Below, piece after piece: positions 40,461-53,598 of a stretch of 64,000 nt of DNA. Location: NCBI RefSeq assembly GCF_055900595.2, contig NZ_CM148325.1; one strand, written 5' to 3'. A program made the translations under genes and the position numbers. Numbering within the stretch: position 1 is the stretch's first letter; every line of letters begins with the position of its first letter. Below the pieces are notes generated by a model. It was not told where the DNA came from, did not search any database, and worked only from the letters and a program-made list of their open reading frames with translations.

Positions 40461-41693
40461 ATGGCAAAGGTATCGCTGGAGAAAGACAAGATTAAGTTTC
40501 TGCTGGTAGAAGGCGTGCACCAAAAGGCGCTGGAAAGCCTTCGTGCAGCGGGTTACACCAACATCGAATTTCACAAAGGCGCGCTGGATGATGAACAATT
40601 AAAAGAATCCATCCGCGATGCCCACTTCATCGGCCTGCGATCCCGTACCCATCTGACTGAAGACGTGATCAACGCCGCAGAAAAACTGGTCGCTATTGGC
40701 TGTTTCTGTATCGGAACGAACCAGGTTGATCTGGATGCAGCTGCAAAACGCGGGATCCCGGTATTTAACGCACCGTTCTCTAATACGCGCTCTGTTGCGG
40801 AGCTGGTAATTGGCGAACTTCTGCTGCTATTGCGCGGCGTACCGGAAGCCAACGCTAAAGCGCACCGTGGTGTCTGGAACAAGCTGGCAGCTGGCTCTTT
40901 TGAAGCGCGCGGCAAAAAGCTGGGTATCATCGGCTATGGTCATATTGGTACACAGTTGGGCATTCTGGCTGAATCGCTGGGAATGTATGTTTACTTTTAT
41001 GATATTGAAAACAAACTGCCGCTGGGCAACGCCACTCAGGTACAGCATCTTTCTGATCTGCTGAATATGAGCGATGTGGTGAGTTTGCATGTGCCAGAGA
41101 ATCCGTCTACCAAAAATATGATGGGCGCGAAAGAGATTTCGCTAATGAAGCCCGGCTCGTTGCTGATTAATGCCTCGCGCGGAACGGTGGTGGATATTCC
41201 GGCACTGTGTGATGCGCTGGCGAGCAAACACCTGGCAGGTGCGGCAATCGATGTCTTTCCGACGGAACCGGCGACCAACAGCGATCCGTTTACCTCTCCG
41301 CTGTGCGAGTTCGATAACGTCCTTCTGACGCCACATATTGGCGGTTCGACTCAGGAAGCACAGGAGAATATCGGTCTGGAAGTTGCAGGTAAATTAATCA
41401 AGTACTCTGACAATGGCTCAACGCTCTCTGCGGTGAACTTCCCGGAAGTCTCGCTGCCACTGCATGGTGGGCGTCGTCTGATGCACATCCACGAAAACCG
41501 TCCGGGCGTGTTAACTGCGCTGAACAAAATCTTCGCCGAGCAGGGCGTTAACATCGCTGCACAGTATCTGCAAACCTCAGCGCAGATGGGTTATGTGGTT
41601 ATTGATATTGAAGCTGACGAAGACGTTGCCGAAAAAGCGCTGCAGGCAATGAAAGCTATTCCGGGCACCATTCGCGCCCGTCTGCTGTACTGA
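40461..41693 (+). CDS. serA: D-3-phosphoglycerate dehydrogenase (410 aa)
   Basis: MAKVSLEKDKIKFLLVEGVHQKALESLRAAGYTNIEFHKGALDDEQLKESIRDAHFIGLRSRT... full-length match. Confidence 0.96.
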   Translation: MAKVSLEKDKIKFLLVEGVHQKALESLRAAGYTNIEFHKGALDDEQLKESIRDAHFIGLRSRTHLTEDVINAAEKLVAIGCFCIGTNQVDLDAAAKRGIPVFNAPFSNTRSVAELVIGELLLLLRGVPEANAKAHRGVWNKLAAGSFEARGKKLGIIGYGHIGTQLGILAESLGMYVYFYDIENKLPLGNATQVQHLSDLLNMSDVVSLHVPENPSTKNMMGAKEISLMKPGSLLINASRGTVVDIPALCDALASKHLAGAAIDVFPTEPATNSDPFTSPLCEFDNVLLTPHIGGSTQEAQENIGLEVAGKLIKYSDNGSTLSAVNFPEVSLPLHGGRRLMHIHENRPGVLTALNKIFAEQGVNIAAQYLQTSAQMGYVVIDIEADEDVAEKALQAMKAIPGTIRARLLY

Positions 41694-41714: not shown

Positions 41715-41744
41715 CGGGCAAGTCACTGGCTTGCCCGTTTTTTT
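41715..41744 (+). terminator. serA rho-independent terminator
   Basis: cgggcaagtcactggcttgcccg followed by ttttttt. Confidence 0.75.
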
Positions 41745-41756
41745 GTGCACAGAAAA

Positions 41757-42460
41757 CCCCCAGCTAGGCTGGGGGTTCCGGAAAGCTTTCAGCTTTGAGC
41801 CAGTTATTAAAACCCCTTTTGATTTGTTAAAACACCTTGCGGTCTGGCAACTGCAAGTGTCAAACAAGAAATCAAAAGGGGGTCCCAATGGGGGACGAAA
41901 AGAGCTTAGCGCACACCCGCTGGAACTGTAAATATCACATAGTTTTTGCGCCGAAATACCGAAGACTGGCGTTTTACGGAGAGAAGCGTAGGGCGATAGG
42001 CAGTATTTTGAGAAAGCTGTGTGAGTGGAAAAGCGTACGGATTCTGGAAGCAGAGTGCTGCGCAGATCATATCCATATGCTTGTGGAAATCCCACCCAAA
42101 ATGAGCGTATCCGGCTTTATGGGATATCTGAAAGGGAAAAGCAGTCTGATGCTTTACGAGCAGTTTGGGGATTTGAAATTCAAATACAGAAACAGGGAGT
42201 TCTGGTGCCGAGGGTACTATGTCGATACGGTGGGTAAGAACACGGCGAAGATACAGGACTACATAAAGCACCAGCTTGAAGAGGATAAAATGGGGGAGCA
42301 GTTATCGATTCCATATCCGGGCAGCCCGTTTACGGGCCGTAAGTAACGAAGTTGAATGCAAATGTCAGATCGTATGCGCCTGTTAGGGCGCGGCTGGTAA
42401 CAGAGCCTTACAGGCGCATTTGAAAAACCTCCGGCTATGCCGGAGGATATTTATTATCCC
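41757..42460 (+). mobile_element. IS200-like (IS200/IS605 family) element; boundaries approximate to about 30 bp
   Basis: Left-end palindrome cccccagctaggctggggg, a stem-loop covering the tnpA RBS, a 152-aa Y1/HUH transposase, and right-end hairpins (cctccggctatgccggagg). No terminal inverted repeats, as expected for this family. Confidence 0.75.
41888..42346 (+). CDS. tnpA: IS200-type Y1 (HUH) transposase TnpA (152 aa)
   Basis: Track ORF trimmed to MGDEKSLAHTRWNCKYHIVFAPKYRR...; HUH motif HIHMLV and catalytic-Tyr region conserved. Confidence 0.92.
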   Translation: MGDEKSLAHTRWNCKYHIVFAPKYRRLAFYGEKRRAIGSILRKLCEWKSVRILEAECCADHIHMLVEIPPKMSVSGFMGYLKGKSSLMLYEQFGDLKFKYRNREFWCRGYYVDTVGKNTAKIQDYIKHQLEEDKMGEQLSIPYPGSPFTGRK

Positions 42461-42599
42461 TTTTCCCGCGCATGTCACTGCCATTTGTAATGCGCTGCAA
42501 TTGCCTTTGCGAGTCTGCTCGAAGAAATAAATCAAAGCCAGATCAATGCGTTGTGCTTATTTAAAGAGAGTTTACGATGGCAGGGCAGCATGGGGCTGT

Positions 42600-42740
42600 A
42601 ACGGTAAAGCCCTCACCGAAGCGAGGGCTTGAAGGAGAAGGGTTATGATGCGACTCGTCATCATACTGATTGTACTGTTACTGATAAGTTTGCCAGCTTA
42701 TTAACAGTCAGTCACAGGGGAGGAGTCATCCTCCCTTACC
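42600..42740 (-). ncRNA. sibC: SibC antisense sRNA (antitoxin of ibsC); ends approximate
   Basis: Region antisense to ibsC ending in hairpin aagccctcgcttcggtgagggctt on the minus strand; position between serA and ygfA matches K-12 sibC. Confidence 0.45.
42645..42704 (+). CDS. ibsC: type I toxin IbsC, 19-aa hydrophobic peptide
   Basis: atgatgcgactcgtcatcatactgattgtactgttactgataagtttgccagcttattaa = MMRLVIILIVLLLISLPAY*, matching the Ibs toxin family as recalled. Too short for the ORF track. Confidence 0.65.
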   Translation: MMRLVIILIVLLLISLPAY

Positions 42741-42804
42741 CTTACTCACTAAATTAGGTTAAAGAATCAACGATGTCAATCAGGGCGATGCAGGTGTGTC
42801 GCCC

Positions 42805-43353
42805 TTACCACTCCCAGACTTTCGACGGTGTAACCACCGCAGGAAGTGGGATATCCCACTCTTCAACGGGGAGTTTTTCCACCAACTGACAATCATGCGC
42901 ATAACCCACCGGTTGCATTTGATAGCTCTGCCAGTTTTGTAAGGTCCGATCATAAAAACCACCGCCCATTCCCAGGCGCTGACCGTACTCATCAAAGGCG
43001 ACCAGCGGTGTGATCAACACGTCTAATCGGGAAAGGGGTAGCACGTCACGCACATCCAGTTTTGGCTCATGGATCTTCAACCTGTTCATCACCAGTTCGC
43101 TTTGCGGATGGTAATTCAGGAACAGCAAATTACCGGCACTAAAGGGATGCAAAACTGGAAGATATACGCGCTTACCGGCGCGCCAGAGTTGTTCTATGAG
43201 TGGCTGGGTGTCGAGTTCGCCATCAAAAGAGAGGAATACAGCGACCGTATGTGCCATCACCACCGGGGGATACGTCATCATCCGGGTAGCGGCTTGTTGA
43301 CCCATTTCCTGCTGTTGTTCCGGCGTTAACGCACGACGACGTTGCCGAATCAT
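42805..43353 (-). CDS. ygfA: 5-formyltetrahydrofolate cyclo-ligase (182 aa)
   Basis: Track ORF trimmed 18 codons to MIRQRRRALTPEQQQEMGQQAATRMM...; start choice uncertain. Confidence 0.85.
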   Translation of the reverse strand: MIRQRRRALTPEQQQEMGQQAATRMMTYPPVVMAHTVAVFLSFDGELDTQPLIEQLWRAGKRVYLPVLHPFSAGNLLFLNYHPQSELVMNRLKIHEPKLDVRDVLPLSRLDVLITPLVAFDEYGQRLGMGGGFYDRTLQNWQSYQMQPVGYAHDCQLVEKLPVEEWDIPLPAVVTPSKVWEW

Positions 43354-43427
43354 TTTGCGGATTTCTTGTCGAGATAATGTCAGTGGGATTTCTGGTAGTT
43401 GCGTCATGGCTGGTGCCAGATAAGAAG

Positions 43428-43610
43428 GGAATCTCCGAGATGCCGCCGCAGGCTGTAACCCTTGAACCCTTGGTTCAAGGTGAATGTGTCGTCACAGTTT
43501 TAAGGCTTCTCGGACGGACCGAGCATGCTCACCAACCGCGGAGCGCCACATTCTTGTGGTATGAAATATCGGCTCAGGGGACTGGCCCGCTTGCGAACAT
43601 CTCAGAGAAA
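43428..43610 (-). ncRNA. ssrS: 6S RNA
   Basis: Minus strand reads atttctctgagatgttcgcaagcgggccagtcccctgagccgatatttcataccacaagaatgtggcgctccgcggttggtgagcatgctcggtccgtccgagaagcc..., matching E. coli 6S RNA; located between zapA and ygfA. Confidence 0.88.
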
Positions 43611-43652
43611 TTTTGTCTTCACGGTTACTCTACCACAGTAAACCGAAAAGTG

Positions 43653-44048
<396 letters not shown>

Positions 44049-44149
44049 CTATAGCTACCCTGATGAGAAGAGACAAGCCCTTTTCTGGTCCACCAGGGCC
44101 CAAAGTGGTAGCATATCATGAATATTCCTCCCTTTGACGACGAATGCTT

Positions 44150-44728
44150 ATGTCTATACAGAACGAAATGCCTGGTTACAACGAAATGAACCAGTATCTG
44201 AACCAACAAGGGACGGGTCTGACCCCTGCTGAGATGCATGGTTTAATCAGTGGGATGATATGTGGTGGTAACGATGACAGCTCATGGCTGCCGCTGCTTC
44301 ACGACCTGACGAACGAAGGCATGGCTTTCGGTCATGAGCTGGCACAGGCATTGCGCAAAATGCACTCTGCTACCAGCGATGCCCTGCAGGATGACGGCTT
44401 CCTTTTTCAGCTTTATCTGCCTGATGGCGATGATGTCAGCGTTTTCGATCGGGCTGATGCGCTGGCAGGTTGGGTTAATCACTTCCTGCTTGGTCTTGGC
44501 GTTACGCAACCGAAGCTGGACAAAGTGACCGGCGAAACCGGTGAAGCCATCGACGATCTGCGTAACATCGCGCAGCTGGGCTACGACGAAGACGAAGATC
44601 AGGAAGAGCTGGAAATGTCGCTTGAAGAGATCATCGAGTACGTCCGTGTTGCCGCGCTGTTATGCCACGACACCTTTACTCATCCGCAACCGACCGCGCC
44701 AGAAGTACAAAAACCGACTCTACACTAA
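44150..44728 (+). CDS. ygfB: UPF0149 family protein YgfB (192 aa)
   Basis: Track ORF trimmed 2 codons to [21 protein letters not shown]... Confidence 0.85.
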
Positions 44729-44753
44729 AAACAAAAAACGTAAGGAGAGTGTT

Positions 44754-46079
44754 ATGAGTGAGATATCCCGGCAAGAGTTTCAGCGTCGCCGTCAGGCCCT
44801 GGTGGAGCAAATGCAACCCGGCAGCGCCGCGCTGATTTTTGCTGCACCAGAAGTAACACGTAGCGCCGACAGCGAATACCCCTATCGTCAGAACAGTGAC
44901 TTCTGGTACTTCACCGGCTTTAACGAACCGGAAGCGGTGCTGGTGCTGATTAAAAGTGATGACACTCATAACCACAGCGTTCTGTTTAACCGCGTACGCG
45001 ACCTGACGGCAGAGATCTGGTTTGGTCGCCGCTTAGGTCAGGATGCTGCACCGGATAAACTGGGCGTTGATCGCGCACTGGCGTTCAGCGAAATCAATCA
45101 GCAACTTTATCAACTACTTAATGGTCTGGATGTGGTGTACCACGCCCAGGGCGAATATGCATATGCTGATGAAATCGTGAACAGCGCGCTTGAAAAACTG
45201 CGTAAAGGTTCGCGACAGAATCTCACCGCCCCGGCAACGATGATCGACTGGCGTCCCATTGTTCATGAAATGCGCCTGTTCAAATCACCAGAAGAGATTG
45301 CCGTACTTCGCCGCGCGGGGGAAATCACCGCCCTGGCGCATACCCGGGCGATGGAAAAATGCCGTCCGGGAATGTTCGAGTACCATCTGGAAGGCGAAAT
45401 TCACCACGAATTTAACCGCCACGGTGCGCGCTATCCGTCCTATAACACCATTGTCGGCAGCGGTGAAAACGGCTGCATTCTGCACTACACCGAAAACGAG
45501 AGTGAACTGCGCGACGGTGACCTGGTGTTGATTGACGCGGGTTGTGAATACAAAGGTTACGCGGGCGATATTACCCGCACCTTCCCTGTTAACGGTAAAT
45601 TCACTCAGGCTCAGCGTGAAATCTACGACATTGTGCTGGAGTCTCTTGAAACCAGCCTGCGCCTGTATCGTCCGGGAACGTCCATTCAGGAAGTCACCGG
45701 TGAAGTGGTGCGCATCATGGTTAGCGGCCTGGTAAAACTCGGCATCCTGAAAGGTGATGTTGATGAACTGATCGCTCAGAACGCCCATCGTCCTTTCTTT
45801 ATGCATGGCCTTAGCCACTGGTTAGGACTGGATGTCCATGACGTTGGCGTTTATGGCCAGGATCGCTCGCGCATTCTGGAACCGGGCATGGTACTGACCG
45901 TAGAGCCGGGGCTGTATATTGCGCCGGATGCAGAAGTGCCAGAACAATATCGCGGTATCGGCATTCGTATTGAAGACGACATTGTGATTACCGAAACCGG
46001 TAACGAAAACCTCACCGCCAGCGTGGTGAAAAAGCCGGAAGAAATCGAAGCGTTGATGGCATCTGCGAGAAAGCAATGA
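44754..46079 (+). CDS. pepP: Xaa-Pro aminopeptidase (441 aa)
   Basis: Track ORF trimmed 71 codons to MSEISRQEFQRRRQALVEQMQPGSAALIF... Confidence 0.93.
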   Translation: MSEISRQEFQRRRQALVEQMQPGSAALIFAAPEVTRSADSEYPYRQNSDFWYFTGFNEPEAVLVLIKSDDTHNHSVLFNRVRDLTAEIWFGRRLGQDAAPDKLGVDRALAFSEINQQLYQLLNGLDVVYHAQGEYAYADEIVNSALEKLRKGSRQNLTAPATMIDWRPIVHEMRLFKSPEEIAVLRRAGEITALAHTRAMEKCRPGMFEYHLEGEIHHEFNRHGARYPSYNTIVGSGENGCILHYTENESELRDGDLVLIDAGCEYKGYAGDITRTFPVNGKFTQAQREIYDIVLESLETSLRLYRPGTSIQEVTGEVVRIMVSGLVKLGILKGDVDELIAQNAHRPFFMHGLSHWLGLDVHDVGVYGQDRSRILEPGMVLTVEPGLYIAPDAEVPEQYRGIGIRIEDDIVITETGNENLTASVVKKPEEIEALMASARKQ

Positions 46080-47254
46080 GCGTAATCATCGTCGGTGGCG
46101 GCATGGCGGGCGCGACGCTGGCGCTGGCTATTTCCCGGTTAAGTCACGGGGCGCTGCCGGTACATTTGATTGAAGCGACCGCGCCAGAGTCTCATGCTCA
46201 TCCGGGCTTTGATGGACGGGCTATTGCGTTGGCGGCGGGCACCTGTCAGCAACTGGCGCGCATCGGCGTCTGGCAATCTCTGGCAGATTGCGCAACCGCC
46301 ATCACTACCGTTCATGTCAGCGATCGTGGTCATGCCGGATTCGTCACCCTCGCCGCAGAAGATTACCAACTGGCGGCGCTGGGGCAGGTTGTCGAATTGC
46401 ATAATGTCGGGCAACGGCTGTTTGCATTGCTGCGCAAAGCACCTGGCGTAACGCTGCATTGCCCTGATCGCGTGGCTAACGTTGCCCGTGCTCAGAGTCA
46501 CGTTGAAGTGACGCTGGAGAGTGGCGAGACGCTGACGGGCTGCGTGCTGGTAGCCGCTGATGGCACCCATTCCGCGTTAGCCACCGCGTGCGGCGTTGAC
46601 TGGCAGCAGGAGCCTTACGAACAACTGGCTGTGATTGCTAACGTTGCGACTTCCGTTGCGCACGAAGGGCGCGCTTTTGAACGCTTTACGCAACATGGCC
46701 CGCTGGCGATGTTGCCGATGTCTGACGGACGCTGTTCGCTGGTCTGGTGTCATCCACTGGAACGGCGCGAAGAGGTGCTGTCGTGGAGCGACGAGACGTT
46801 TTGCCGTGAACTCCAGTCGGCCTTTGGTTGGCGACTTGGGAAAATTACCCACGCTGGTAAACGCAGTGCTTACCCGCTGGCGTTAACCCGCGCCGCCAGA
46901 CCTATTACCCATCGTACCGTGCTGGTGGGCAATGCGGCGCAAACTCTGCACCCGATTGCCGGGCAAGGGTTCAACCTCGGTATGCGGGATGTCATGAGCC
47001 TTGCGGAAACGCTGACTCAGGCTCAGGCACGTGAAGATGACATCGGTGATTACGGCGTATTGTGCCGTTATCAGCAGCGTCGGCAGAGCGATCGCGAAGC
47101 AACCATCGGTGTCACGGACAGCCTTGTACATCTTTTTGCCAACCGTTGGACGCCGCTGGTTGTCGGGCGCAACATCGGGCTGATGGCAATGGAATTATTC
47201 ACTCCGGCACGCGATGTGCTGGCGCAGCGCACCCTCGGTTGGGTGGCGCGTTAA
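46076..47254 (+). CDS. ubiH: 2-octaprenyl-6-methoxyphenol hydroxylase (392 aa)
   Basis: FAD-binding GxGxxG (IIVGGGMAGATLA); 4-nt overlap with pepP. Confidence 0.92.
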   Translation: MSVIIVGGGMAGATLALAISRLSHGALPVHLIEATAPESHAHPGFDGRAIALAAGTCQQLARIGVWQSLADCATAITTVHVSDRGHAGFVTLAAEDYQLAALGQVVELHNVGQRLFALLRKAPGVTLHCPDRVANVARAQSHVEVTLESGETLTGCVLVAADGTHSALATACGVDWQQEPYEQLAVIANVATSVAHEGRAFERFTQHGPLAMLPMSDGRCSLVWCHPLERREEVLSWSDETFCRELQSAFGWRLGKITHAGKRSAYPLALTRAARPITHRTVLVGNAAQTLHPIAGQGFNLGMRDVMSLAETLTQAQAREDDIGDYGVLCRYQQRRQSDREATIGVTDSLVHLFANRWTPLVVGRNIGLMAMELFTPARDVLAQRTLGWVAR

Positions 47255-47276
47255 AGGCGGCTTTAAGGAATAAACA

Positions 47277-48479
47277 ATGCAAAGTGTTGATGTAGCCATT
47301 GTTGGCGGCGGCATGGTGGGGCTGGCGGTTGCCTGCGGCTTGCAGGGCAGCGGCTTACGCGTTGCCGTACTGGAGCAGCGCGTACCGGAACCCCTGGCGG
47401 CGGATGCACCACCACAACTGCGCGTTTCGGCTATCAATGCCGCCAGCGAAAAATTACTCACCCGTCTTGGCGTCTGGCAGGACATTCTCTCTCGTAGGGC
47501 CAGTTGTTATCACGGTATGGAAGTGTGGGACAAAGACAGTTTTGGTCACATTTCGTTTGACGATCAAAGCATGGGCTATAGCCATCTTGGGCATATCGTT
47601 GAAAACTCAGTGATTCACTACGCGCTGTGGAACAAAGCGCAGCAGTCGTCAGATATCACTCTGTTGGCCCCCGCAGAATTACAGCAGGTCGCCTGGGGAG
47701 AAAATGAAACCTTCCTGACGCTGAAAGATGGCAGCATGTTAACGGCGCGTCTGGTAATTGGCGCAGACGGCGCTAATTCCTGGTTGCGCAACAAAGCCGA
47801 TATTCCGCTGACTTTCTGGGATTATCTGCATCACGCGCTGGTGGCGACCATTCGCACGGAAGAACCGCATGATGCGGTGGCGCGACAGGTTTTCCATGGC
47901 GAAGGCATTCTGGCCTTTTTGCCGCTTAGCGATCCGCATCTTTGCTCAATTGTCTGGTCACTGTCGCCAGAGGAAGCACAGCGGATGCAGCAGGCAGGCG
48001 AAGACGAATTTAACCGCGAGTTAAATATCGCTTTTGATAATCGCCTGGGCTTATGCAAGGTTGAGAGTGAACGCCTGGTGTTCCCGCTGACTGGGCGTTA
48101 TGCGCGCCAGTTTGCCGCGCACCGTCTGGCGCTGGTGGGCGACGCCGCGCATACCATTCACCCGTTGGCGGGGCAGGGGGTGAATCTCGGCTTTATGGAT
48201 GCTGCAGAGCTGATTGCTGAACTGAAACGGTTGCATCGTCAGGGTAAAGACATCGGGCAGTACATTTACCTGCGTCGCTATGAGCGTAGCCGCAAGCACA
48301 GTGCGGCGCTGATGCTGGCAGGTATGCAGGGATTCCGCGATCTGTTTTCCGGGGCTCATCCGGCGAAAAAACTGCTGCGTGATATTGGCCTGAAACTGGC
48401 CGACACGCTTCCTGGCGTTAAACCACAACTTATCCGCCAGGCAATGGGATTAAACGATTTGCCTGAATGGCTGCGTTAA
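47277..48479 (+). CDS. ubiI: 2-octaprenylphenol hydroxylase UbiI/VisC (400 aa)
   Basis: FAD-binding VAIVGGGMVGLAVA; paralogue directly downstream of ubiH. Confidence 0.92.
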   Translation: MQSVDVAIVGGGMVGLAVACGLQGSGLRVAVLEQRVPEPLAADAPPQLRVSAINAASEKLLTRLGVWQDILSRRASCYHGMEVWDKDSFGHISFDDQSMGYSHLGHIVENSVIHYALWNKAQQSSDITLLAPAELQQVAWGENETFLTLKDGSMLTARLVIGADGANSWLRNKADIPLTFWDYLHHALVATIRTEEPHDAVARQVFHGEGILAFLPLSDPHLCSIVWSLSPEEAQRMQQAGEDEFNRELNIAFDNRLGLCKVESERLVFPLTGRYARQFAAHRLALVGDAAHTIHPLAGQGVNLGFMDAAELIAELKRLHRQGKDIGQYIYLRRYERSRKHSAALMLAGMQGFRDLFSGAHPAKKLLRDIGLKLADTLPGVKPQLIRQAMGLNDLPEWLR

Positions 48480-48559
48480 AAATTTCTCCTCTGTTGTTTA
48501 TTTGATACCCATCACACTTTCATCTCCCGGTTTTTTCGCCGGGAGATTTTCCTCATTTG

Positions 48560-48926
48560 AAATAAACTAATTTCACCTCCGTTTTCGCATTATATTTTCT
48601 AATGTCACGAATTTTTGATTTAGTGTTTTTTGACATTTTTTCAGTTCTTAATATTGCCTTATTCAAATTAAGTTTCTCATCACATCATCTTTGTATAGAA
48701 AATGGAATGTTTTTTGGTTTTTTATTCTGTTGTTATTCTGGCGTTTTTTAACCATAAGCTAATGTGATGATCAATTTTACCTTATGGTTAACAGTCTGTT
48801 TCGGTGGTAAGTTCAGGGAAAAGAGAACGATTGCGTTGGGGACCGGGAGTGGCTCCGATGCTGGGTTTCGTGGTGATAATTTCGCCATGGAAAAGTTGTC
48901 AGCCCCGCTTATTCAATGAGGACAAG
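48560..48926 (+). promoter_or_regulatory. AT-rich gcvTHP upstream control region
   Basis: About 400 bp AT-rich spacer between the ubiI terminator hairpin (tctcccggttttttcgccgggaga) and gcvT; in E. coli this region holds the gcv promoter and its regulator-binding sites. Sites not individually mapped. Confidence 0.4.
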
Positions 48927-50021
48927 ATGGCACAACAGACTCCTTTGTACGAACAACACACGCTTTGCGGCGCTCGCATGGTGGATTTCCACGGCTGGAT
49001 GATGCCGCTGCATTACGGTTCGCAAATCGACGAACATCATGCGGTACGTACCGATGCCGGAATGTTTGATGTGTCACATATGACCATCGTCGATCTTCGC
49101 GGCAGTCGCACCCGGGAGTTTCTGCGTTATCTGCTGGCGAACGATGTGGCGAAGCTCACCAAAAGCGGCAAAGCCCTTTACTCGGGGATGTTGAATGCCT
49201 CTGGCGGTGTGATAGATGATCTCATCGTTTACTACTTTACTGAAGATTTCTTCCGCCTCGTTGTTAACTCCGCCACCCGCGAAAAAGACCTCTCCTGGAT
49301 TACCCAACACGCTGAACCCTTCGGTATCGAAATTACCGTTCGTGATGACCTTTCCATGATTGCCGTACAAGGGCCGAATGCGCAGGCAAAAGCTGCCACA
49401 CTGTTTAATGATGCTCAGCGTCAGGCGGTGGAAGGGATGAAACCCTTCTTTGGCGTGCAGGCGGGCGCTCTGTTTATTGCCACCACCGGTTATACCGGTG
49501 AAGTGGGCTACGAAATTGCGCTGCCCAATGAAAAAGCGGCGGATTTCTGGCGTGCGCTGGTGGAAGCGGGCGTTAAGCCCTGCGGTCTGGGCGCGCGTGA
49601 CACGCTGCGTCTGGAAGCGGGTATGAATCTTTATGGTCAGGAGATGGACGAAACCATTTCTCCTTTAGCAGCCAACATGGGCTGGACCATCGCGTGGGAA
49701 CCGGCTGATCGTGACTTTATCGGTCGTGAAGCTCTGGAAGCGCAGCGTGAACATGGCACAGAAAAACTGGTTGGTCTGGTGATGACCGAAAAAGGCGTGC
49801 TGCGTAATGAACTGCCGGTACGTTTTACCGATGCGCAGGGCAATCAGCATGAAGGCATTATCACCAGCGGTACTTTCTCCCCGACGTTGGGTTACAGCAT
49901 TGCGCTGGCACGCGTGCCGGAAGGTATTGGCGAAACGGCGATTGTGCAAATTCGCAACCGTGAAATGCCGGTAAAAGTGACGAAACCTGTTTTTGTGCGT
50001 AACGGCAAAGCCGTCGCGTGA
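48927..50021 (+). CDS. gcvT: glycine cleavage system T protein, aminomethyltransferase (364 aa)
   Basis: Track ORF trimmed 41 codons to [27 protein letters not shown]... Confidence 0.95.
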
Positions 50022-53487: not shown

Positions 53488-53598
53488 ACATTGCCTGATG
53501 CACCTCGTTTATCAGGCCTACATAGTCTGTGCAATGTATTGAATTTGCACGATCTTGTAGGCTGGATAAGGCGTTCACGCCGCATCCGGCATAATAAA
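53488..53598. repeat. REP/BIME units
   Basis: gcctgatgcacctcgtttatcaggcctaca and inverted gtaggctggataaggcgttcacgccgcatccggc. Confidence 0.75.

What the first reader, a model, noticed from the sequence alone, without database searches (positions are those of the whole stretch)
42600..42740. ibsC/sibC type I toxin-antitoxin pair
A 19-codon ORF encoding a purely hydrophobic peptide (MMRLVIILIVLLLISLPAY) lies antisense to a region ending in a strong terminator hairpin, at the position of K-12 sibC/ibsC. The pair is too small for the ORF track and easy to miss in automated annotation.
Basis: partly seen in the sequence, partly recalled or inferred. Interest (0 to 1): 0.3.

Follow-up and report, generated by a model that had tools for sequence, protein, structure and literature searches.

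The report
Known ibsC/sibC toxin-antitoxin pair
This is the well-known ibsC/sibC pair of Escherichia coli, a 19-residue membrane toxin gene overlapped on the other strand by the small RNA that silences it; it sits in its usual place and is an ordinary finding.

Summary
The observation and the interpretation both hold. A 19-codon ORF at 42645-42704 (+) encodes MMRLVIILIVLLLISLPAY. It matches Pfam Ibs_toxin (39.7 bits, cut-off 27). It is the only one of 206 short ATG-ORFs in the window with at least 75% hydrophobic residues. On the opposite strand, Rfam SIB_RNA matches full length (135.9 bits, gathering score 56, E 7e-28).

Ungapped mapping onto K-12 sibC places the 141-nt SibC RNA at 42743 to 42603 (-), with 9 mismatches. 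It ends in a 10-bp UUCG hairpin of -17.8 kcal/mol. Gene order is serA / ibsC-sibC / fau / ssrS / zapA, as in K-12, and the locus occurs in 5424 of 5426 complete E. coli genomes.

The peptide is RefSeq WP_100635201.1, the allele also carried by O157:H7. It differs from K-12 IbsC by F16L and S17P. Those changes come from a 4-nt block in the loop of SibC target recognition domain 1. Domain 2, the Shine-Dalgarno site, the start codon, the terminator and both promoters' hexamers are conserved.

The mechanism, antisense repression of a membrane-depolarising peptide, is inferred from K-12 experiments and was not tested here. One local peculiarity is a 711-bp IS200 inserted 129 bp upstream of the ibsC transcription start. 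It leaves the pair intact. Already known; low interest.

The parts
42645..42704 (+). ibsC coding sequence: 19 codons plus stop, MMRLVIILIVLLLISLPAY
   Evidence: Translation. Pfam Ibs_toxin 39.7 bits against a cut-off of 27. An identical peptide is annotated as WP_100635201.1 'type I toxin-antitoxin system Ibs family toxin' at the same locus in E. coli 2020CK-00188 and O157:H7.
42632..42637 (+). Shine-Dalgarno AAGGAG of ibsC, 7 nt upstream of the ATG
   Evidence: Read from the sequence. Invariant in 11 alleles.
42551..42578 (+). Putative ibsC promoter: TTGTGC (42551-42556), 16-nt spacer, TACGAT (42573-42578)
   Evidence: Position inferred from the K-12 transcription start (Han et al. 2010, PMC2943612). 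The -10 hexamer is invariant, and the -35 hexamer is invariant at its first four positions, while the spacer is variable among 11 alleles. Not flagged by the consensus scan.
42585..42743 (+). ibsC mRNA, 159 nt, by homology with K-12 (18-nt 5' overhang beyond the SibC 3' end)
   Evidence: Han et al. 2010 report a 159-nt ibsC mRNA with an 18-nt 5' overhang in the full duplex. Mapped here through the ungapped K-12 alignment. Predicted fold -65.5 kcal/mol, z -5.0. The ends are inferred, not measured.
42603..42743 (-). SibC antitoxin RNA, 141 nt, fully complementary to the ibsC translation initiation region and ORF
   Evidence: Ungapped match to K-12 sibC b4446 with 9 mismatches in one register only. 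Rfam SIB_RNA 135.9 bits. Fold -54.7 kcal/mol, z -5.3, 0 of 200 shuffles as stable. 10 of 42 consensus pairs show compensatory changes across paralogues.
42751..42779 (-). SibC promoter: TTGACA (42779-42774), 17-nt spacer, TAATTT (42756-42751); +1 = A at 42743
   Evidence: Read from the sequence. These bases are positions 1-29 of the Rfam SIB_RNA model, so they are conserved across the family. The -35 hexamer is unchanged in all 11 alleles; the -10 hexamer varies at one position (42754) in one allele, and one spacer position varies. The -10 matches the consensus at only 3 of 6 positions and was not flagged by the scan.
42607..42630 (-). SibC terminator hairpin (P7): 10-bp stem, UUCG loop, then UUUACC to 42603
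   Evidence: -17.8 kcal/mol. Identical to K-12 and invariant in 11 alleles. Compensatory changes in this stem across paralogues.
42676..42698 (-). SibC target recognition domain 1 (TRD1, SibC +46 to +68; P5 loop), opposite ibsC codons 11-18
   Evidence: Domain limits from Han et al. 2010. 5 of the 9 differences from K-12 SibC fall here: +49 to +52 GCUG to UGGC, and +61 G to C. In the MFE fold, +48 to +55 form the hairpin loop.
42629..42645 (-). SibC target recognition domain 2 (TRD2, SibC +99 to +115; P1 3' strand plus single-stranded J1/7), opposite the ibsC Shine-Dalgarno site and start
   Evidence: Domain limits from Han et al. 2010. Identical to K-12 and invariant in 11 alleles. +107 to +113 are unpaired in the MFE fold.
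42718..42735 (.). GC-rich hairpin GGGAGGA-nnnn-UCCUCCC: P2 of SibC on the - strand, and the 3' hairpin of the ibsC mRNA on the + strand
   Evidence: -12.5 kcal/mol. Most of the variation falls in the loop, with one variable stem position (42732).

Best explanation
This is the chromosomal type I toxin-antitoxin locus ibsC/sibC of an Escherichia coli-like genome, in its ancestral position between serA and fau. The + strand makes a roughly 159-nt mRNA for the 19-residue hydrophobic peptide IbsC. When overproduced in K-12, that peptide inserts into the inner membrane, depolarises it and stops growth. The - strand makes the 141-nt SibC RNA, which is perfectly complementary to the ribosome-binding site and the whole ORF. 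SibC first contacts the mRNA through two exposed segments. TRD1 is a hairpin loop opposite codons 11-18. TRD2 is a single-stranded stretch opposite the Shine-Dalgarno site and start codon. Pairing then spreads, translation is blocked and the mRNA is degraded, so the toxin is normally not made. Shown here: the sequence elements, their conservation, the family matches, the synteny and the predicted folds. Inferred from K-12 experiments: transcription, toxicity, repression and the roles of TRD1 and TRD2. The copy in the window is the O157:H7-type peptide allele (F16L, S17P relative to K-12). It has an IS200 element 129 bp upstream of the ibsC start that leaves all parts of the pair intact.
For: Rfam SIB_RNA matches full length at 135.9 bits against a gathering score of 56. 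Pfam Ibs_toxin scores 39.7 bits against 27. The ORF is the only strongly hydrophobic short ORF among 206 in the window. SibC is 93.6% identical to K-12 SibC in a single ungapped register, against 60-75% to the other four paralogues. Gene order serA / ibs / fau / ssrS / zapA matches K-12 and other E. coli. The locus is present in 5424 of 5426 complete genomes. The same peptide is annotated as an Ibs family toxin in RefSeq records. The MFE fold reproduces the P1, P2, P5, P6, J1/7 and P7 layout that Han et al. probed (one search compared). 10 of 42 pairs covary across paralogues. The Shine-Dalgarno site, start codon, TRD2 and terminator are invariant in 11 alleles. The mechanism comes from the literature: PMC2943612 and PMC8309996.
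Against: Nothing in the sequence contradicts it. There is no expression or toxicity evidence for this particular allele. F16 is conserved in all five K-12 Ibs peptides and is L here. The review of the IbsC mutagenesis says that residues 6-19, including the C-terminal residues, are needed for toxicity. NCBIfam gave no hit for the 20-residue construct. Neither promoter nor the SibC terminator passed the simple consensus scans.
Confidence: 0.95

Rival explanations
1. The pair is a decaying relic. The RNA and ORF are recognisable, but the toxin has lost activity through F16L and S17P, or is never expressed, so the locus is functionally inert in this lineage.
For: F16 is invariant in the five K-12 Ibs peptides and is replaced here. 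Residues 6-19, including the C-terminal residues, are reported as required for IbsC toxicity (review of Mok et al. in PMC8309996). Neither promoter reaches the consensus scan threshold.
Against: The ORF, Shine-Dalgarno site, promoter hexamers and terminator are intact, and most of them are invariant across alleles. The same peptide is fixed in the O157:H7 lineage, with 313 genomes within 1-2 nt of this ORF. L for F keeps hydrophobicity, position 17 is the most variable in the family (S, Q, P, A) and P17 occurs in K-12 IbsB and IbsE. The K-12 promoters, which are active experimentally, carry the same -10 hexamers and near-identical -35 hexamers: SibC identical, ibsC differing only at its last base (TTGTGT against TTGTGC).
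Confidence: 0.04
2. The pair is intact, but its expression is altered by the adjacent IS200. Transcription reading out of tnpA, which has the same orientation as ibsC, or loss of upstream sequence, shifts the toxin/antitoxin balance.
For: IS200 (41745-42455) lies 129 bp upstream of the ibsC +1, with tnpA on the same strand.
Against: The insertion leaves 95 bp of native sequence upstream of the ibsC -35 hexamer, identical to the IS-free strain 2020CK-00188 except for one base (42494, A for G). The IS200 right end carries an 8-bp GC-rich hairpin at 42428-42446, scored terminator-like on both strands. SibC covers the whole mRNA and its own promoter is 300 bp away from the element. 17 complete genomes tolerate an IS200 at the same junction.
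Confidence: 0.08
3. It is one of the other Sib/Ibs paralogues (A, B, D or E), or a translocated copy, rather than the sibC orthologue.
For: The family is multi-copy and its members are similar. The TRD1 loop differs from K-12 SibC.
Against: Synteny with serA and fau/ssrS. 93.6% identity to SibC against at most 74.8% to the others. TRD2, J1/7 and the terminator are identical to SibC and differ from all other paralogues. R3 is shared only with IbsC.
Confidence: 0.01

Closest known systems
E. coli K-12 sibC (b4446) / ibsC (b4665)
   Same: Same chromosomal position, between fau and serA. Same lengths: 141-nt RNA and 19-codon ORF, with no indels. Identical TRD2, Shine-Dalgarno site, start codon, terminator and -10 hexamers. 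Same predicted secondary structure.
   Different: There are 9 substitutions in SibC, 5 of them in TRD1. The peptide differs by F16L and S17P. The ibsC promoter spacer differs at 4 positions, and the last base of the -35 hexamer differs (TTGTGC against TTGTGT). The serA-proximal intergenic sequence is diverged and carries an IS200.
Ibs family toxin WP_100635201.1 at the same locus in E. coli O157:H7 and strain 2020CK-00188
   Same: Identical peptide. SibC is identical in 2020CK-00188 and 2 nt different in O157:H7.
   Different: In O157:H7 the ORF differs by one synonymous base. Neither strain has the IS200. The flanking 6 kb of 2020CK-00188 is only 98.2% identical to the window.
Paralogous SibA/IbsA, SibB/IbsB, SibD/IbsD and SibE/IbsE of K-12
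   Same: Same architecture and fold. Conserved M1, M2, I6, I7, L11, L12, S15 and Y19. Conserved AUGAUGA...UCAUCAU hairpin and P1.
   Different: 60-75% RNA identity. Different TRD1 and TRD2 sequences and different terminator stems. They occur as tandem pairs at other loci (yegL-mdtA, yqiK-hldE), outside this window.
Other chromosomal type I toxin-antitoxin pairs (hok/Sok, ldr/Rdl, tisB/IstR-1, shoB/OhsC)
   Same: A small hydrophobic membrane toxin repressed by an antisense RNA (PMC2943612 introduction; PMC8309996).
   Different: No sequence relationship. In Sib/Ibs the antisense RNA spans the entire initiation region and ORF, whereas the others overlap only partly or act in trans.

Membership tests
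Sib RNA (Rfam RF00113) | Covariance-model score at or above the curated gathering score, full-length match | tested here: met
   135.9 bits against 56, E 7.4e-28, model positions 1-147 of 147.
Sib RNA (Rfam RF00113) | Conserved secondary structure: P1 closing stem, P2 hairpin, P5 hairpin with exposed loop, P6 AUGAUGA/UCAUCAU hairpin, single-stranded J1/7, terminator P7 | tested here: met
   The MFE fold gives exactly this layout, z -5.3. The consensus of 7 Sib sequences has 42 pairs, 10 of them with compensatory changes. This is prediction only, with no probing.
Sib RNA (Rfam RF00113) | Encoded antisense to, and spanning, a complete ibs ORF and its ribosome-binding site | tested here: met
   SibC 42603-42743 (-) contains the Shine-Dalgarno site 42632-42637 and the ORF 42645-42704 (+).
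Sib RNA (Rfam RF00113) | Expressed as an abundant RNA of about 140 nt | not testable with these tools
   Only promoter-like hexamers (TTGACA-17-TAATTT) and the terminator hairpin can be read.
Ibs toxin (Pfam PF13956) | Profile HMM score above the gathering cut-off over the whole peptide | tested here: met
   39.7 bits against 27, E 4.3e-10, profile positions 1-19 of 19. The query was padded with one upstream codon to reach the tool's 20-residue minimum.
Ibs toxin (Pfam PF13956) | 18-19 residues, almost entirely hydrophobic, with the family-invariant M1, M2, I6, I7, L11, L12, S15 and Y19 | tested here: met
   All eight invariant positions are present. 79% are L/I/V/F/M/A/W/C.
Ibs toxin (Pfam PF13956) | NCBIfam model hit | tested here: inconclusive
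   No NCBIfam family was reported for the 20-residue construct. PGAP nevertheless names the identical peptide, WP_100635201.1, an Ibs family toxin.
Ibs toxin (Pfam PF13956) | Overexpression depolarises the membrane and stops growth | not testable with these tools
   Known for K-12 IbsC (PMC8309996). Untested for the L16/P17 allele.
sibC/ibsC orthologue (as opposed to sibA, B, D or E) | Location between serA and fau (ygfA)-ssrS | tested here: met
   serA 40461-41693 (+), fau 42805-43407 (-), 6S RNA 43428-43611 (-). Same order in K-12 and other E. coli.
sibC/ibsC orthologue (as opposed to sibA, B, D or E) | Closest in sequence to SibC/IbsC, with the SibC-specific TRD2 and terminator | tested here: met
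   93.6% to SibC against 74.8, 72.6, 61.6 and 60.4% to SibD, E, A and B. TRD2 and P7 are identical to SibC. The peptide is 89% identical to IbsC.
sibC/ibsC orthologue (as opposed to sibA, B, D or E) | K-12 TRD1 sequence, including G49-C50-U51 | tested here: not met
   +49 to +52 are UGGC instead of GCUG, and +61 is C instead of G. Because the RNA is cis-encoded, its own mRNA carries the complementary changes. This is allelic variation, also seen in O157:H7 and, in part, in other strains. It is not evidence against orthology.
Type I toxin-antitoxin system | The antisense RNA represses translation or stability of the toxin mRNA | not testable with these tools
   Shown for K-12 SibC/ibsC (PMC2943612). 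Inferred here from perfect complementarity and conserved TRD2.

The most novel reading that the evidence does not exclude
The 4-nt block replacement in the TRD1 loop (GCUG to UGGC, giving F16L and S17P) could make this allele's SibC orthogonal to K-12-type ibsC at TRD1. Alternatively it could bring it closer to another Sib paralogue of the same genome. Either way, allelic turnover at TRD1 would retune cross-talk within the five-member Sib/Ibs family. Separately, the recurrent IS200 insertion at the serA terminator could modulate expression of the pair. Neither idea is excluded and neither is supported beyond the position of the changes.
Probability: 0.08. Interest if true: 0.3.

Novelty: already known. 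Interest (0 to 1): 0.08.

Why it matters
It matters mainly for annotation. The toxin ORF is too short for generic ORF callers, and the SibC RNA is still missing from the PGAP-annotated E. coli records inspected here. Flagging the pair therefore avoids leaving a 'gene-less' gap between serA and fau, and avoids mistaking the hairpins there for simple terminators. Biologically it adds nothing new. The locus is nearly universal in E. coli, the mechanism has been dissected in K-12, and this peptide allele is already in RefSeq. The modest point of interest is that allelic differences fall in the same TRD1 loop that Han et al. showed to determine which ibs mRNA a Sib RNA recognises.

Tried and rejected
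- **NCBIfam scan:** the scan of the peptide returned nothing. I did not count this against membership, because Pfam and the RefSeq naming agree.
- **Consensus promoter/terminator scan:** it missed both promoters and the SibC terminator. It reported two promoter-like sites inside the ORF on the - strand (42696-42669 and 42687-42660), which I regard as chance matches (2 found against 0.6 expected). It also reported a bidirectional hairpin that belongs to the IS200 right end.
- **Overlapping ORFs:** these include a 42-aa TTG ORF at 42629-42757 (+) and a 30-aa ATG ORF at 42572-42664 (-) inside SibC. I rejected them. They have no Shine-Dalgarno site, the second runs through the SibC terminator, and neither has any family match.
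- **TRD1 enrichment:** 5 of 9 substitutions fall in TRD1 (binomial p 0.008). This does not hold up if the 4-nt block is counted as one event (2 of 5 events, p 0.19), so I make no selection claim.
- **Sister sib loci:** I fetched the wrong side of the 2020CK-00188 chromosome when looking for its sibD/E locus. I then dropped the idea, because that strain is not the source of the window (98.2% identity in the flank).
- **Papers not held:** Fozo et al. 2008 (PMC2597788) and Mok et al. 2010 (PMC3009890) are not in the library. Their results are cited only through Han et al. 2010 and the 2021 review.

Full report
**Observation**

The window holds a 19-codon ORF at 42645-42704 on the + strand, encoding MMRLVIILIVLLLISLPAY. 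An AAGGAG Shine-Dalgarno sequence lies at 42632-42637, 7 nt upstream of the first ATG. The generic ORF list, with its minimum of 20 aa, does not show it. It is not a chance ORF. Of 206 ATG-initiated ORFs of 15-25 codons in all six frames of the 64-kb window, it is the only one with at least 75% L/I/V/F/M/A/W/C. It also matches Pfam PF13956 (Ibs_toxin) over the whole 19-position profile, at 39.7 bits against a cut-off of 27, E 4.3e-10. That query was padded with one upstream codon to reach the tool's 20-residue minimum. An NCBIfam scan of the same construct returned nothing.

**The antisense RNA**

A scan of the whole window against Rfam 15 at gathering thresholds gave four hits. One is RF00113 SIB_RNA at 42779-42629 on the - strand: 135.9 bits against a gathering score of 56, E 7.4e-28, model positions 1-147 of 147. 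The Rfam model starts in the promoter and stops before the terminator, so I mapped the RNA itself onto the curated K-12 annotation (sibC b4446, 141 nt; ibsC b4665). Only one ungapped register fits. SibC runs from 42743 to 42603 (-) with 9 mismatches; neighbouring registers give about 100 mismatches.

- **Promoter.** Upstream lie TTGACA (42779-42774), a 17-nt spacer and TAATTT (42756-42751), with A42743 as +1.
- **3' end.** A 10-bp hairpin with a UUCG loop sits at 42630-42607, -17.8 kcal/mol, followed by UUUACC. It has no long U-run, so the simple scan did not flag it.
- **Fold.** The 141-nt RNA folds at -54.7 kcal/mol, z = -5.3, with 0 of 200 shuffles as stable. The layout is P1 (+1-6 with +101-106), the P2 hairpin, a long P5 hairpin with an open 8-nt loop at +48-55, the AUGAUGA/UCAUCAU P6 hairpin, a single-stranded +107-113 and the terminator. 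This is the architecture Han et al. (PMC2943612) established by probing K-12 SibC.
- **Covariation.** In an alignment with the five K-12 Sib RNAs and a second SibC allele, RNAalifold finds 42 pairs. 10 of them show compensatory double changes, notably in P2, P5 and the terminator.

**Orthology and context**

The order of genes and RNAs is as follows:

- serA, 40461-41693 (+)
- the pair
- fau/ygfA, 42805-43407 (-)
- 6S RNA ssrS, 43428-43611 (-)
- zapA

This is the K-12 arrangement in reverse orientation, and the arrangement in every other E. coli record inspected.

The RNA is 93.6% identical to K-12 SibC. It is 74.8, 72.6, 61.6 and 60.4% identical to SibD, E, A and B. The peptide is 89% identical to IbsC and shares R3 only with IbsC. 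A 341-nt or 191-nt query around the pair matches 5424 of 5426 complete E. coli genomes at 90-100%.

The peptide equals RefSeq WP_100635201.1. That protein is annotated 'type I toxin-antitoxin system Ibs family toxin' at this locus in strain 2020CK-00188 (DNA identical over 191 nt) and in O157:H7 (one synonymous change). The finding is therefore the sibC/ibsC orthologue, carrying the O157:H7-type peptide allele.

**How this copy differs from K-12**

The nine SibC substitutions are at +17, +18 (P2 loop), +30, +49 to +52, +61 and +88. The block +49 to +52 (GCUG to UGGC) lies in the P5 loop, inside target recognition domain 1 (TRD1, +46 to +68). It includes the G49-C50-U51 triplet that Han et al. 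changed to switch SibC specificity towards ibsD. On the coding strand the same block turns TTC AGC into TTG CCA, giving F16L and S17P.

TRD2 (+99 to +115, window 42645-42629, opposite the Shine-Dalgarno site and start codon) and the terminator are identical to K-12.

I aligned 11 alleles: the window, K-12, 2020CK-00188, Ecol_316, O157:H7, 55989 and five more sampled across the identity range.

| Region | Behaviour across 11 alleles |
|---|---|
| 42593-42653 (terminator, Shine-Dalgarno, start, TRD2 target) | invariant |
| -10 hexamers | ibsC invariant; SibC varies at one position (42754) in one allele |
| -35 hexamers | SibC invariant; ibsC invariant at its first four positions only |
| ibsC promoter spacer and first transcribed bases | variable |
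| Codons 4-5 and 13 | variable |
| Codons 16-17 (TRD1 loop) | variable |
| P2 hairpin | variable, mostly in the loop, plus one stem position (42732) |

Peptide alleles seen were ...SFSAY...SFPAY and ...SLPAY, plus V5A and L4V variants. The apparent enrichment of substitutions in TRD1 (5 of 9, p 0.008) is not significant if the 4-nt block counts as one event (p 0.19). I make no claim of selection.

**Mechanism (inferred from K-12 experiments, not tested here)**

According to Han et al. 2010, which also summarises Fozo et al. 2008, and the review PMC8309996:

- Ibs peptides are 18-19-residue hydrophobic toxins whose overexpression depolarises the membrane within minutes and is lethal.
- Sib RNAs of about 140 nt repress their cognate ibs mRNAs.
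- SibC recognises ibsC mRNA independently through TRD1, within the ORF, and TRD2, at the initiation region. Pairing then spreads and the mRNA is degraded.
- The ibsC mRNA is about 159 nt, with an 18-nt 5' overhang beyond the SibC 3' end.

Transferred to the window, this puts the ibsC +1 at G42585 and the mRNA at 42585-42743. A TTGTGC-16-TACGAT promoter lies at 42551-42578, with its -10 ending 7 nt before +1. The mRNA is predicted to be highly structured: -65.5 kcal/mol, z -5.0. A ChIP-seq study found sigma-S RNA polymerase at the K-12 sibC promoter, with temperature-dependent rpoS effects on SibC level (PMC4447067). Because SibC is cis-encoded, every allelic change is automatically compensated in its own target, so the pair in the window should be self-consistent.

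**Local peculiarity: IS200**

The serA-ibsC spacer is 951 bp here, against about 240 bp in IS-free strains. A 711-bp IS200 (41745-42455, tnpA on the + strand) sits directly after the T7 run of the serA terminator hairpin (41715-41737). The Rfam STnc490 hit at 41755-41878 is the leader of this element. The element ends 129 bp before the ibsC +1 and 95 bp before its -35 hexamer. The remaining native sequence matches the IS-free strain 2020CK-00188 except for one base, 42494. The IS200 right end carries a GC-rich hairpin (42428-42446) that scores terminator-like on both strands. I therefore consider an effect on the pair possible but unlikely.

Seventeen complete genomes carry an IS200 at the very same junction and orientation. 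They have different backgrounds and two IS200 variants, 99.9% and 96% identical to this copy.

**Source of the window**

The 6 kb beyond ssrS is 95-98.3% identical to all 5425 matching complete E. coli genomes and to none better. The window therefore comes from an E. coli-like lineage not represented in that collection. I ran no further search on naming it, because it does not bear on the verdict.

**Verdict**

The feature is already known: an allele of an experimentally characterised and nearly universal E. coli locus, whose peptide is already in RefSeq.

The remark about automated annotation is half right. PGAP annotates the Ibs CDS in all records inspected but never the SibC RNA; only the curated K-12 record has it. 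Interest is low.

The only open questions are whether the L16/P17 peptide is as toxic as K-12 IbsC, whether the TRD1 block change alters cross-talk with other Sib paralogues, which lie outside this window, and whether the IS200 affects expression.

Noticed in passing
window 41745-42455 (IS200); serA terminator hairpin 41715-41737: A 711-bp IS200 (tnpA on the + strand; its leader is the Rfam STnc490 hit at 41755-41878) is inserted exactly after the T7 run of the serA terminator, 129 bp upstream of the ibsC +1. Seventeen of 5426 complete E. coli genomes have an IS200 at the same junction and orientation. They have different flanking backgrounds and two IS200 variants (99.9% and 96% identical to this copy). 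This suggests a recurrent insertion site, or an old insertion spread by recombination.
   Followed up: partly
window 43400-49400: The core-gene block next to the locus (ssrS, zapA, ygfB, pepP, ubiH, ubiI, gcvT) is only 95-98.3% identical to every one of 5425 complete E. coli genomes. The window therefore comes from an E. coli-like lineage not represented among them. The serA 3' end and terminator are about 92-93% identical to the three IS200-carrying strains compared.
   Followed up: partly
L001, L002, L006, L007, L012-L016 (PGAP-annotated E. coli records) compared with L003 (K-12): PGAP records annotate the Ibs CDS and the 6S RNA, but none annotates the SibC antitoxin RNA, even though Rfam RF00113 detects it easily. 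Only the curated K-12 record lists sibC.
   Followed up: yes
window 42520-42800, aligned with 10 other alleles: Allelic variation at the locus is patterned. 42593-42653 (SibC terminator, Shine-Dalgarno site, start codon, TRD2 target) is invariant. The ibsC promoter spacer, codons 4-5, 13 and 16-17 (TRD1 loop) and the P2 hairpin (mostly its loop) vary. L16 was seen only in the window, 2020CK-00188 and O157:H7 alleles.
   Followed up: partly
window 42783-42804: An inverted repeat, GGGCGA-N10-TCGCCC, lies between the fau stop codon (42805) and the SibC -35 hexamer. It may be the fau transcript's 3' hairpin, without a U-run. Read-through from ssrS-fau into sibC therefore seems possible. Two SibC transcripts are reported in K-12 (PMC4447067).
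   Followed up: no
window 53514-53556 (-): A borderline Rfam hit to ES036 (CssrF) sRNA, 38.4 bits against a gathering score of 37.6.
   Followed up: no
window 43428-43611 (-): 6S RNA (ssrS), a full-length Rfam match at 138.1 bits, immediately upstream of fau as in K-12.
   Followed up: no
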